From: a virus
Length of the DNA: 64,000 nucleotides
Strand: one strand, 5' to 3'
Virus record (IMG/VR): IMGVR_UViG_3300042522_000315
Location: 20,105 to 84,104 of that record
The first letter of the stretch is position 1. Every line of letters begins with the position of its first letter. Shown here piece after piece: positions 52,229-52,411 of this stretch. The notes below the pieces were generated by a model, which was not told the origin of the DNA, ran no database searches, and saw only the letters and a program-made list of their open reading frames with translations. Made by a program: the position numbers and the translations under genes.

Positions 52229-52302
52229 GACGCTATGGCAGAGTGATTATGCAACCGTCTCTAAAACGGCTAATGTGGGTTTGAGTCCTACTAGCGTCAC
52301 CA
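52229..52302 (+). tRNA. Amber suppressor tRNA (anticodon CTA)
   Basis: GACGCTA/TAGCGTC-A-CCA; CCGT-CTCTAAA-ACGG; GTGGG-TTTGAGT-CCTAC. Confidence 0.85.
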
Positions 52303-52321
52303 TTTACAAAGGAGTAACACA

Positions 52322-52363
52322 ATGAAGGAACACTTCTTCTAGGTTAAACAAAAGCCACCTTGA
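52322..52363 (+). CDS. Amber-interrupted mini-ORF MKEHFF(TAG)VKQKPP(TGA)
   Basis: Strong SD AAGGAG 7 nt upstream; directly after the suppressor tRNA. Confidence 0.5.
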
Positions 52364-52411
52364 CTTTTCTTGTTAGATGCACTACAATAACTCTAACAAA
52401 GGAAAAATCAA

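What the first reader, a model, noticed from the sequence alone, without database searches (positions are those of the whole stretch)
52229..52411. Amber suppressor tRNA immediately followed by an amber-interrupted mini-ORF ending Pro-Pro-stop
Seen: a complete cloverleaf with anticodon CTA and encoded CCA. Right after it are AAGGAG and ATG AAG GAA CAC TTC TTC TAG GTT AAA CAA AAG CCA CCT TGA, followed by a 158-aa gene of unknown function. The genome is not amber-recoded: core genes are intact in code 11 and TAG is only an occasional stop (regA, rlpA, the 971-aa gene, the 43501 leader). Known: Pro-Pro next to a stop codon promotes ribosome stalling. Inference: the mini-ORF reports the balance between suppressor tRNA and RF1 and controls the downstream gene, or acts as a ribosome/release-factor sink. 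Caveat: its TGA overlaps a TTGACT-17-TACAAT promoter, which could partly explain the sequence.
Basis: partly seen in the sequence, partly recalled or inferred. Interest (0 to 1): 0.85.

Follow-up and report, generated by a model that had tools for sequence, protein, structure and literature searches.

The report
Stop-codon read-through switch beside phage tRNA
A T4-like freshwater phage that uses the normal genetic code carries its own UAG-reading tRNA next to a 13-codon leader gene, and that leader probably has to be read through an internal UAG to a ribosome-stalling Pro-Pro-stop end before the next gene's hidden start signal is exposed; 81 of 84 diverged phage loci keep this design, which I did not find described in any paper.

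Summary
The tRNA(CUA) lies at 52229-52302. It is followed by AAGGAG and the leader MKEHFF-UAG-VKQKPP-UGA (52322-52363), then by a 158-aa gene ("X", 52412-52888).

The arrangement is not chance. Across 84 distinct loci holding X homologs (40-80% identity):
- 81 have a leader of the form start, 1-10 codons, internal stop, 2-6 codons, in-frame Pro-Pro.
- 72 pair a TAG leader with an upstream tRNA(CUA).
- The one leader with an internal TGA sits beside a tRNA(UCA).
- No locus shows a mismatched codon and anticodon.
- A 150-kb relative with no suppressor tRNA has no internal stop in its leader.

A hairpin begins at the leader's stop codon and pairs with X's Shine-Dalgarno. Its sequence covaries between loci (cognate arms -11.9 kcal/mol, swapped arms -6.7).

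The genomes are not recoded, and the leader is the tRNA's only recurrent client.

Best reading (0.7): an erm/SecM-like translational attenuator whose input is nonsense suppression, so X is made only when the phage suppressor tRNA works. X is a basic helical-hairpin protein from a large unnamed family (2,630 clusters); its function is unknown.

This scan has already noted the same design on other DNA, in at least 27 genomes. I found no publication describing it. There is no experimental evidence.

The parts
52229..52302 (+). Suppressor-type tRNA with anticodon CUA, anticodon loop CUCUAAA, a 7-bp acceptor stem, discriminator A and an encoded CCA. It is the only stop-reading tRNA among the 29 in the contig.
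   Evidence: ARAGORN; Rfam tRNA model 55.5 bits; one CUA tRNA per genome. The D loop reads G-A where relatives read G-G, and the T loop reads TTTG where relatives read TTCA. This is consistent with a compensated tertiary pair 19-56 (alignment, read directly).
52309..52314 (+). Shine-Dalgarno AAGGAG of the leader. It lies 6 nt after the tRNA's CCA end and 7 nt before the leader ATG.
   Evidence: The distance from the tRNA 3' end to the leader start codon has a median of 22 nt over 55 loci.
52322..52363 (+). Leader mini-ORF MKEHFF-UAG-VKQKPP-UGA: 6 sense codons, an internal amber codon, 6 sense codons, then the stop.
   Evidence: The architecture is conserved in 81 of 84 distinct loci.
52340..52342 (+). 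Internal amber codon (leader codon 7), followed by G.
   Evidence: A purine follows the internal TAG in 55 of 57 loci. The type of internal stop matches the neighbouring tRNA's anticodon in 73 of 73 loci where both are seen, including one TGA/UCA pair.
52355..52363 (+). Lys-Pro-Pro-stop end of the leader (CCA CCT TGA), the presumed ribosome stall site.
   Evidence: Third positions of both Pro codons use several bases across loci (Pro1 CCA 35, CCT 14, CCG 8; Pro2 CCT 18, CCC 17, CCA 12, CCG 10). The residue before Pro-Pro is R, K or H in 41 of 46 loci. A C-terminal Pro-Pro impairs termination in E. coli YbeL-PP (PMC3834316).
52360..52411 (+). Hairpin that sequesters the SD of gene X. The 5' arm is 52360-52377 and begins on the last base of the second Pro codon, running through the leader's TGA. 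The loop is 52378-52391 and the 3' arm is 52392-52411.
   Evidence: RNAfold MFE and centroid structures. Homologous hairpins with different sequences occur in 42 of 43 loci. Cognate arms give -11.9 kcal/mol against -6.65 for swapped arms.
52400..52403 (+). Shine-Dalgarno core AGGA of gene X, 8 nt before its ATG, paired inside the hairpin's 3' arm.
52412..52888 (+). Gene X, 158 aa: a basic protein (pI 9.8) with a long helical hairpin and a small alpha/beta C-terminal part. It is the gated gene and its family is uncharacterised.
   Evidence: No Pfam, PHROG, NCBIfam or PADLOC match. 574 close homologs. 2,630 50%-identity clusters at E<=1e-3. AlphaFold2 pLDDT 90.9. No informative fold match.
52360..52388 (+). 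Sigma-70-like TTGACT-N17-TACAAT lying inside the hairpin. It is a possible secondary promoter and is not a conserved part of the module.
   Evidence: 1 site found, 3.4 expected from shuffles. A comparable motif is present in only 15 of 43 loci.

Best explanation
The stretch is a three-part module: suppressor tRNA, leader and gated gene. It works as a translational attenuator whose input is stop-codon read-through.

1. The tRNA(CUA) and the leader are probably made from one transcript.
2. Ribosomes start on the 13-codon leader.
3. If release factor wins at the internal UAG (codon 7), the ribosome leaves about 18 nt before the hairpin. The hairpin stays closed, the SD of gene X stays paired, and X is not made.
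4. If the phage's own tRNA(CUA) decodes the UAG, the ribosome translates six more codons and reaches Lys-Pro-Pro-stop, a context that is released slowly.
5. A ribosome sitting there covers and unwinds the hairpin's 5' arm, which begins at that very stop codon. The SD of X is freed and X is translated.

X is therefore made only when the phage suppressor tRNA has been expressed, processed, charged by a host enzyme and is competing effectively with RF1.

Shown here: conservation of the parts, the codon-anticodon match, the covarying hairpin and its fixed position, and the standard genetic code of these phages.

Inferred: read-through itself, the stall, unwinding by the stalled ribosome, and the ON direction of the switch.

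The role of X is unknown. It is basic and built on a long helical hairpin, so my guess is that it binds RNA or the translation machinery.
For: 1. Conserved synteny. Homologs of X in Synechococcus phage BUCT-ZZ01 and roseophage DSS3_MAL1 (39-43% identity, GC 0.38 and 0.60) carry the same tRNA(CUA) and a leader with an internal TAG and a PP-stop end.
2. Numbers. Over 84 distinct upstream regions, 81 have the leader. A TAG leader goes with a CUA tRNA in 72. A TGA leader goes with a UCA tRNA in 1 (L206, checked by eye). There are no mismatched pairs. Both loci with no recognisable leader have no suppressor tRNA in the DNA held.
3. Co-loss. The 150-kb relative G004 has 30 tRNAs, none of them stop-reading, and its leader has no TAG.
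4. Selection on the peptide. Pro-Pro is always in frame with the start and the internal stop. Its third codon positions vary. The preceding residue is R, K or H in 41 of 46 PP-stop leaders. Of the 11 leaders with no stop right after Pro-Pro, 10 carry RxPP (RGPP, RSPP, RAPP or RDPP), and RxPP with x = Ser, Ala, Gly or Pro is a published elongation-arrest motif (PMC7897499).
5. Hairpin. In 42 of 43 loci a hairpin pairs the sequence at or just after the leader's end with the SD of X. The same holds in the PP-sense class and in L206 and L007.
6. Covariation. There are 40 distinct 12-mers among 42 loci. Cognate arms fold at -11.9 kcal/mol against -6.65 for swapped arms. The cognate arm ranks in the best 10% of swaps in 37 of 42 loci, Mann-Whitney p=1.9e-18.
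7. Geometry. The internal stop lies 15-27 nt (mode 18) before the hairpin's start, beyond the reach of a ribosome paused on it. The terminal stop lies inside the 5' arm.
8. Uniqueness. The pattern occurs once per genome.
9. Precedent for the stall. A C-terminal Pro-Pro arrests termination in E. coli in every context tested (PMC3834316).
Against: All of the evidence is comparative and computational. There is no evidence that the tRNA is expressed, modified or charged, that the leader is translated, or that a ribosome stalls on it.

- The 118-nt leader region as a whole folds no better than shuffles (z -1.39). Only the hairpin segment stands out, and that z of -3.4 came from my own mononucleotide shuffles.
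- RNAalifold on a plain MAFFT alignment found no consensus structure. Covariation therefore rests on my swap control, which does not correct for phylogeny.
- In E. coli a Pro-Pro-stop also triggers A-site mRNA cleavage and tmRNA tagging (PMC3834316), so the outcome could be mRNA processing instead of SD unmasking.
- A promoter-like site inside the window's hairpin could give a transcript that lacks the 5' arm and so escapes control.
- The codon-anticodon switch rests on a single opal locus in my own data.
- The function of X is unknown, so the biological logic remains open.
Confidence: 0.7

Rival explanations
1. The anatomy is the same but the sensed variable is different. The phage tRNA is roughly constant, and the leader reports the host's RF1 activity or its general translational state (for example tRNA modification, charging, or damage by anticodon nucleases). 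X would then be a response to host condition, not a check on the phage's own tRNA.
For: Read-through depends on the ratio of suppressor tRNA to RF1, so either side could be the variable. The tRNA and the leader are probably co-transcribed (median 22 nt apart), which would hold the tRNA supply in step with the sensor. No release-factor gene is present in the contig.
Against: The strict co-occurrence, and the co-loss of the tRNA with the internal stop, show that the tRNA is needed. They do not show which side varies. No data here can separate the two readings.
Confidence: 0.12
2. The leader does not unmask the SD. Stalling at the Pro-Pro-stop would instead trigger A-site mRNA cleavage, tmRNA action or peptidyl-tRNA drop-off. 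The module would then control mRNA processing or decay, or act as a sink for ribosomes, release factor or tRNA(Pro).
For: YbeL-PP stalling causes cleavage at the stop codon and ssrA tagging in E. coli (PMC3834316). BUCT-ZZ01 has a tmRNA-like gene about 500 nt downstream of the module. DSS3_MAL1 encodes a Pth2-type hydrolase 4.5 kb away.
Against: A sink would not need a hairpin that covaries with the SD of the next gene and is anchored at the leader's stop codon in 42 of 43 loci. Pth2 is absent from this contig and from 3 of the 5 related genomes searched. One copy per genome is a weak sink.
Confidence: 0.08
3. The conserved elements are explained by transcription. The sequence after the leader would be a promoter for X, the CCNCC would be an accidental anti-SD or UP-like element, and the mini-ORF would be incidental or serve only the tRNA transcript.
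For: TTGACT-17-TACAAT matches 10 of 12 consensus positions in the window. A similar motif is present in 15 of 43 loci, including one subfamily with near-perfect hexamers.
Against: The motif is absent from about two thirds of loci, whereas the hairpin and leader are near-universal. The TTG follows from complementarity to the SD, and the loops are AT-rich. A promoter does not explain the in-frame start, stop, Pro-Pro and stop with varying third positions, nor the match of the internal stop to the tRNA's anticodon. In the window region, promoter-like hits are not above the shuffle expectation.
Confidence: 0.05
4. The tRNA is there for genome-wide amber recoding (TAG as a sense codon, as in crAss-like or Lak phages), and the leader is just one of many amber-containing ORFs.
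For: Suppressor tRNAs are typical of recoded phages (preprint 10.1101/2021.08.26.457843). BUCT-ZZ01 has one further gene with an amber at codon 7.
Against: Coding density is 0.87 under code 11 and TAG=sense adds only 0.03. There are no start-proximal amber-interrupted ORFs in the contig. Neither start-proximal stops nor open-stop-open events show any TAG excess over TAA or TGA across the genomes examined. Core genes such as DNA polymerase are intact.
Confidence: 0.03

Closest known systems
Leader-peptide translational attenuation of ermC/ermB, cat and cmlA
   Same: A short SD-led uORF sits directly upstream. The regulated gene's SD is locked in a hairpin whose 5' arm overlaps the end of the leader. 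A ribosome stalled in the leader opens the hairpin.
   Different: In those systems the trigger is an antibiotic bound in the exit tunnel. Here the ribosome must first pass an internal stop codon using a dedicated suppressor tRNA, and the stall motif is Pro-Pro-stop or RxPP. There is no sequence relationship.
Arrest-peptide monitors SecM-secA, MifM-yidC2, and ApdA/ApdP/ApcA with R-A-P-P/G (PMC7897499)
   Same: A proline-based arrest motif lies near the 3' end of an upstream ORF, with a downstream stem-loop that hides the next gene's SD. Ten of the eleven leaders that run on past Pro-Pro carry RxPP.
   Different: Those peptides are long secreted or membrane proteins whose arrest is relieved by pulling force. 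This leader is 12 residues long, and reaching the arrest site is gated by nonsense suppression.
C-terminal Pro-Pro termination arrest (E. coli YbeL-PP; PMC3834316)
   Same: The motif is the same, Pro-Pro directly before a stop codon. It is known to slow release and leave peptidyl-tRNA(Pro) in the P site.
   Different: YbeL-PP is a laboratory model for ribosome rescue, not a regulatory element, and its known consequence is mRNA cleavage and ssrA tagging.
prfB (RF2) autoregulation by an in-frame UGA (recalled from my own knowledge, not checked here)
   Same: An early in-frame stop codon in a natural gene serves as a sensor of termination efficiency.
   Different: prfB escapes by +1 frameshifting and regulates the release factor itself. 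Here escape is by a cognate suppressor tRNA, and the output is a separate gene reached through an SD hairpin.
Synthetic unnatural-amino-acid switches with TAG placed in the trp/tna leader peptides (reviewed in PMC6412442, section 6)
   Same: The logic is the same: expression of the downstream gene requires translation of a leader past an inserted UAG by a tRNA(CUA).
   Different: Those are engineered, act on transcription through Rho or a terminator, and depend on an orthogonal synthetase. The phage module is natural, acts on translation, and presumably uses a host synthetase.
Stop-codon-recoded phages with suppressor tRNAs (preprint 10.1101/2021.08.26.457843)
   Same: A phage-encoded suppressor tRNA is proposed to time gene expression.
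   Different: Those genomes carry in-frame stops throughout their late genes. This phage uses the standard code, and the only recurrent amber client is a regulatory leader.

Membership tests
Amber suppressor tRNA | Canonical cloverleaf with anticodon CUA and a 7-nt anticodon loop | tested here: met
   ARAGORN; Rfam tRNA 55.5 bits; loop CUCUAAA read.
Amber suppressor tRNA | Is aminoacylated and decodes UAG in vivo | not testable with these tools
   Support is indirect only: the type of internal stop matches the neighbouring anticodon in 73 of 73 loci. The amino acid inserted could not be inferred, because the nearest paralogs scatter over many isotypes.
tRNA-Pyl (the ARAGORN and GenBank label) | Occurs together with pyrrolysyl-tRNA synthetase | tested here: not met
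   No PylS match in the contig, although the contig is only about 50% complete. ARAGORN applies the label to any tRNA with a CUA anticodon.
Leader-peptide translational attenuator (erm/cat type) | Short ORF with its own SD directly upstream of the regulated gene | tested here: met
   AAGGAG lies 7 nt before the ATG, and the leader ends 48 nt before X. SD plus ATG is found in nearly all loci.
Leader-peptide translational attenuator (erm/cat type) | The regulated gene's SD is sequestered in a hairpin supported by covariation | tested here: met
   The swap control gives -11.9 against -6.65 kcal/mol, with 37 of 42 loci in the best 10%. It is not corrected for phylogeny.
Leader-peptide translational attenuator (erm/cat type) | The stall site is placed so that the stalled ribosome disrupts the hairpin | tested here: met
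   The 5' arm begins within the stop codon, or 0-4 nt after the second Pro codon, in all loci examined. The reach of the ribosome is taken from general knowledge.
Leader-peptide translational attenuator (erm/cat type) | The stall is induced by a small-molecule ligand (antibiotic) | tested here: not met
   The gate is an internal stop codon matched to a neighbouring tRNA. The module works like these systems but does not belong to those families.
Proline-based ribosome arrest peptides (PP-stop, RxPP) | The motif is present at the expected place | tested here: met
   KPP-stop in the window. [RKH]PP-stop in 41 of 46 loci. RxPP in 10 of the 11 leaders that run on past Pro-Pro.
Proline-based ribosome arrest peptides (PP-stop, RxPP) | Arrest demonstrated by toeprint or peptidyl-tRNA accumulation | not testable with these tools
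   This needs in vitro translation or ribosome profiling.
Stop-codon-recoded phage (code 15) | In-frame TAG in many genes and low coding density under code 11 | tested here: not met
Protein X: any named protein family | Significant profile or fold match | tested here: inconclusive
   No hit in Pfam, PHROGs, NCBIfam or PADLOC. No hit among PDB sequences. Foldseek E>=0.29. VIA-align Z<=8.1, and only generic helical hairpins. BFVD returns only uncharacterised phage proteins.

The most novel reading that the evidence does not exclude
The suppressor tRNA is not a decoding aid for the genome. It is a private signalling molecule whose only job is to license this one switch. No host tRNA reads UAG, so the leader reports unambiguously that the phage's own tRNA island has been transcribed, processed, modified and charged in this host and has not been destroyed by host tRNA-targeting defences. 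Only then is the basic coiled-coil protein X released to act on RNA or on the translation apparatus. This would make it a natural tRNA-gated checkpoint, and it would explain the orphan suppressor tRNAs seen in many standard-code phages.
Probability: 0.3. Interest if true: 0.92.

Novelty: new variant of a known kind. Interest (0 to 1): 0.85.

Why it matters
- Many standard-code phages carry a suppressor tRNA with no identified target. [quoted passage not shown] This module gives such tRNAs a concrete, testable client.
- As far as my searches reach, it would be the first natural regulatory leader whose input is nonsense suppression. It is the natural counterpart of engineered amber switches (PMC6412442).
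- It adds a compact 12-residue family of Pro-Pro arrest leaders to a short list of known arrest peptides.
- It attaches a regulatory handle to a very large uncharacterised phage protein family (2,630 clusters), and two cultured phages carry it: BUCT-ZZ01 on Synechococcus elongatus PCC 7942, and DSS3_MAL1.
- It matters for annotation. These tRNAs are labelled tRNA-Pyl, the leaders are never annotated, and neighbouring amber-gated genes are mis-started or missed.

Tried and rejected
Loci came from `search for related loci` instead.
- RNAalifold on a MAFFT alignment of 29 spacers gave no consensus structure, because stems of different length and sequence were not put in register. I relied on per-locus folds and a swap control.
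- The whole 118-nt leader region is not more stable than shuffles (z -1.39).
- Expression: three freshwater metatranscriptome runs held parts of the stretch. Laid on 51600-53400, their contigs cover the manA-like RNA and some tRNAs but nothing between 52271 and 52880. That is no evidence for or against expression.
- Function of X: all profile, PDB-sequence and fold searches were blank or generic. A search for longer fused forms gave one probable gene-calling fusion. No gene family other than the tRNA and leader is a conserved neighbour.
- tRNA identity by similarity to co-resident tRNAs was inconclusive.
- Other amber clients: start-proximal and mid-gene in-frame TAGs show no excess over TAA and TGA controls.
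- Pth2, RF-1 domain and PylS families are absent from the contig. Pth2 is present above cut-off in only 1 of the 5 related genomes searched. The DSS3_MAL1 Pth gene followed in frame by another ORF is simply two adjacent annotated genes.
- The promoter explanation is rejected as the conserved feature.
- `complex prediction` was not used. I make no binding claim, and the host is unknown.
- Literature: five full-text searches found no description of the module.
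Full report
**1. What is there**

The window is the right-hand 64 kb of an 84-kb IMG/VR contig, estimated at about 50% complete. It belongs to a T4-like myovirus. Its family-B DNA polymerase is about 52% identical to those of cyanomyoviruses. The closest RNA holders are freshwater metatranscriptomes.

The window carries 29 tRNA genes. One of them, at 52229-52302, has anticodon CUA, a regular cloverleaf and an encoded CCA. 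Rfam's tRNA model scores it 55.5 bits.

Six bases after its 3' end lies AAGGAG. It is followed by ATG AAG GAA CAC TTC TTC TAG GTT AAA CAA AAG CCA CCT TGA (52322-52363). Forty-eight bases later comes a 158-aa ORF, here called X (52412-52888).

**2. The genome uses the standard code**

- Of 91 non-overlapping + strand ORFs, 50 end in TAA, 38 in TGA and 3 in TAG.
- Reading TAG as sense raises the coding fraction only from 0.87 to 0.90.
- No ORF with an early in-frame TAG exists in the contig.
- "Open-TAG-open" events are no more frequent than the TAA or TGA equivalents, and in this contig all lie on the non-coding strand.
- The contig has no release-factor, Pth2 or PylS gene.

**3. The module is conserved**

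X has no Pfam, PHROG, NCBIfam or PADLOC match. It does have 574 close homologs and 2,630 clusters at E<=1e-3 in an exhaustive profile search.

Two homologs sit in cultured phages: Synechococcus phage BUCT-ZZ01, and roseophage DSS3_MAL1, which has 60% GC. In both, X is preceded by a tRNA(CUA), annotated as tRNA-Pyl or not annotated at all, and by an SD-led mini-ORF: MGGDAS*INLKPP* and MKS*IRPPP*.

Three scans of IMG/VR gave 84 distinct upstream regions. They break down as follows:

| Leader and tRNA | Loci |
|---|---|
| TAG leader with a tRNA(CUA) upstream | 72 |
| TAG leader, no suppressor tRNA in the short stretch of DNA held | 8 |
| TGA leader with a tRNA(UCA) (L206) | 1 |
| Leader not recognised by the script, tRNA(CUA) present (L007) | 1 |
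| No recognisable leader and no suppressor tRNA | 2 |

So 81 regions have a start codon, 1-10 codons, an internal stop, 2-6 codons, and Pro-Pro in frame. I verified the L206 opal case by eye: M L TGA V Y A P P TAA. L007 still shows TAG-KVFKPP-stop by eye. No locus has a mismatched codon and anticodon.

One of the two loci without a leader lies on a 150-kb contig (about 75% complete) with 30 tRNAs and no stop-reading tRNA.

The pattern is otherwise rare. It occurs once per genome at this place, with one stray TAG hit, no TAA hits and two TGA hits in about 0.8 Mb searched on both strands.

**4. The leader is selected as a translated peptide**

- Both Pro codons use several third-position bases: Pro1 is CCA 35, CCT 14, CCG 8; Pro2 is CCT 18, CCC 17, CCA 12, CCG 10.
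- The residue before Pro-Pro is Arg, Lys or His in 41 of 46 PP-stop leaders.
- The base after the internal TAG is a purine in 55 of 57. A review notes that this base affects RF1 recognition of UAG (PMC6412442). That a purine favours suppression is my recollection, not something I checked.
- In 11 loci the frame runs on past Pro-Pro. In three of these it ends in an ATGA overlap with X's start codon. Ten of the 11 read RGPP, RSPP, RAPP or RDPP.
- RxPP (x = Ser, Ala, Gly or Pro) is a published elongation-arrest motif, and R-A-P-P is the arrest core of ApdA and ApdP (PMC7897499).
- A C-terminal Pro-Pro is a published termination-arrest motif that works in every context tested (PMC3834316).

The family therefore uses two known routes to the same end, a ribosome parked on the Pro-Pro codons.

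**5. The link to gene X**

In 42 of 43 loci folded, the sequence from the leader's end to X's ATG forms a hairpin. Its 5' arm starts in or just after the leader's stop codon, and its 3' arm contains X's SD. The PP-sense class, the opal locus and L007 behave the same way, with the arm starting 0-4 nt after the second Pro codon.

The arms differ in sequence: there are 40 distinct 12-mers among 42 loci. Pairing each 5' arm with its own 3' arm gives -11.9 kcal/mol on average, against -6.65 when paired with another locus's arm. The cognate arm ranks in the best tenth in 37 of 42 loci, p=1.9e-18. That control keeps base composition but does not correct for relatedness.

In the window the hairpin is 52360-52377 paired with 52392-52411, and the AGGA of X's SD (52400-52403) is paired. 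It appears in both the MFE and the centroid structures.

**6. Geometry (inference)**

A ribosome holds roughly 11-15 nt of mRNA downstream of the first P-site base. This figure is recalled from the toeprint and ribosome-helicase literature, not tested here.

- With the internal UAG in the A site, the ribosome reaches about 52351. The hairpin starts at 52360 and is untouched.
- With the terminal UGA in the A site, it reaches about 52368-52372. That unwinds the outer helix and the bases paired to the SD.
- Across loci, the internal stop lies 15-27 nt (mode 18) before the terminal stop. The two states are therefore always distinguishable.

**7. Best reading**

The module is an erm/SecM-like translational attenuator whose trigger is read-through of a stop codon by the phage's own suppressor tRNA. 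X is made only when that tRNA is functional and outcompetes RF1.

The tRNA gene ends a median of 22 nt before the leader's start codon. Sensor and signal are therefore probably made from one transcript, which would give a built-in delay.

The promoter-like TTGACT-17-TACAAT inside the window's hairpin could add an uncontrolled transcript. However, such a motif is found in only 15 of 43 loci, and much of it follows from the anti-SD sequence plus an AT-rich loop.

**8. What the tRNA is for**

Each of the five related genomes that has a suppressor tRNA has exactly one, always at this module. The leader is its only recurrent client.

There is one extra client in BUCT-ZZ01. The gene after X starts MGSDGS-TAG-INECNGG. 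Its post-TAG part is homologous, from residue 4 onward, to ORFs in other phages. The annotated GTG start therefore truncates it, and the only SD-ATG lies before the TAG. In Klebsiella phage KP13-26 the homolog starts M-S-TAG, is unannotated, and abuts that phage's tRNA(CUA). The window contig has no such gene.

The amino acid inserted at UAG cannot be told. The CUA tRNAs are diverse, have a short variable arm, mostly discriminator A and an A36-A37-A38 loop, and resemble no single isotype.

**9. Protein X**

- The AlphaFold2 model is confident (pLDDT 90.9). It has a long helical hairpin (residues 3-36 and 55-89), further helices and a small beta hairpin.
- The pI is 9.8.
- The N-terminus (ELKIKSKHLALEPAIIRKEE) is nearly invariant, and shorter family members lack the C-terminal insert.
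- Fold searches give only generic coiled-coil hairpins, Z<=8.1.
- The function remains unknown. RNA or ribosome binding is a guess from charge and shape.

**10. Prior knowledge**

Five literature searches found no description of this module. The nearest items are:
- engineered amber-in-leader switches (PMC6412442);
- the recoded-phage model (10.1101/2021.08.26.457843);
- arrest peptides (PMC7897499).

This scan's own notebook holds at least 27 notes of the same design in other genomes, including one on the same protein family. I treated those as leads. I re-derived the conservation, the hairpin and the codon-anticodon match independently here. Their reported Pth2 association does not hold for this lineage.

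**11. Verdict**

The mechanism is still inferred. It is a new variant of leader-peptide attenuation with a new kind of input.

Noticed in passing
window 51945-52140: A manA RNA motif (Rfam RF01745, 58.5 bits against a gathering score of 55.2) lies between tRNA-Met and tRNA-Gly, just upstream of the module. Contigs from two freshwater metatranscriptome runs cover 51879-52156 (2 differences) and 51958-52122 (0 differences), close to the bounds of the motif.
   Followed up: partly
L004 3392-3727 (Synechococcus phage BUCT-ZZ01, ON615601): The gene after X has an in-frame TAG at codon 7 (MGSDGS*INECNGG...), and its first residues resemble the leader's (MGGDAS*IN). Homology to other phages starts 4 residues after the TAG, so the annotated GTG start at 3554 truncates it. 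It is a directly amber-gated gene.
   Followed up: yes
L212 1487-1797 (Klebsiella phage KP13-26, OP617743): An unannotated ORF of about 100 codons starts ATG TCA TAG. It is homologous to the BUCT-ZZ01 amber-gated gene and ends at the start of that phage's tRNA(CUA) (1798-1872). The same place is also unannotated in two related Klebsiella phage records.
   Followed up: partly
L004 3885-4303 (BUCT-ZZ01): ARAGORN calls a permuted tmRNA-like gene (tag peptide ANDETFSMALAA) about 500 nt downstream of the module. This may be relevant if stalling at the Pro-Pro-stop recruits ribosome rescue.
   Followed up: no
G004 contig (L040 / L122-L129), around 12170-12332: A 150-kb relative with 30 tRNAs has no stop-reading tRNA, and the leader before its X gene has no TAG. 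By eye, either TTA stands at the homologous place or a TAA plus a 1-nt shift does. A PP-stop and a weaker hairpin remain. This looks like co-loss or decay of the switch.
   Followed up: partly
window 52229-52302: The window's tRNA(CUA) reads G-A in the D loop where relatives read G-G, and TTTG in the T loop where relatives read TTCA. That is a possible compensated 19-56 tertiary pair. One other locus shows the same two changes.
   Followed up: partly
window 43083-43174, 46667-46748, 44087-44154: There are unusual tRNA-like genes in the island: a 92-nt tRNA-Ile(UAU), an 82-nt tRNA with an undetermined anticodon, and a weak Rfam-only tRNA hit (33.3 bits) that ARAGORN does not call.
   Followed up: no
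window 49500-50555 (- strand): A 351-aa ORF with an ADP-ribosyltransferase exoenzyme domain (PF03496, E 7.7e-12) is the only sizeable minus-strand gene inside the tRNA island.
   Followed up: no
window 53349-53903: An RNase H-like DUF protein (PF04308, phrog_11311) lies about 0.9 kb downstream of X. A related ORF recurs near X in 10 of 60 distinct loci, which is the only other weakly recurrent neighbour.
   Followed up: partly
window 52324-52339: A small predicted stem (GAAGGA...UCUUC) covers leader codons 2-6, directly before the UAG. The pre-UAG peptide also follows a loose pattern across loci: M-K-x-[F/Y]-x-x. I did not test whether either affects termination at the UAG.
   Followed up: no
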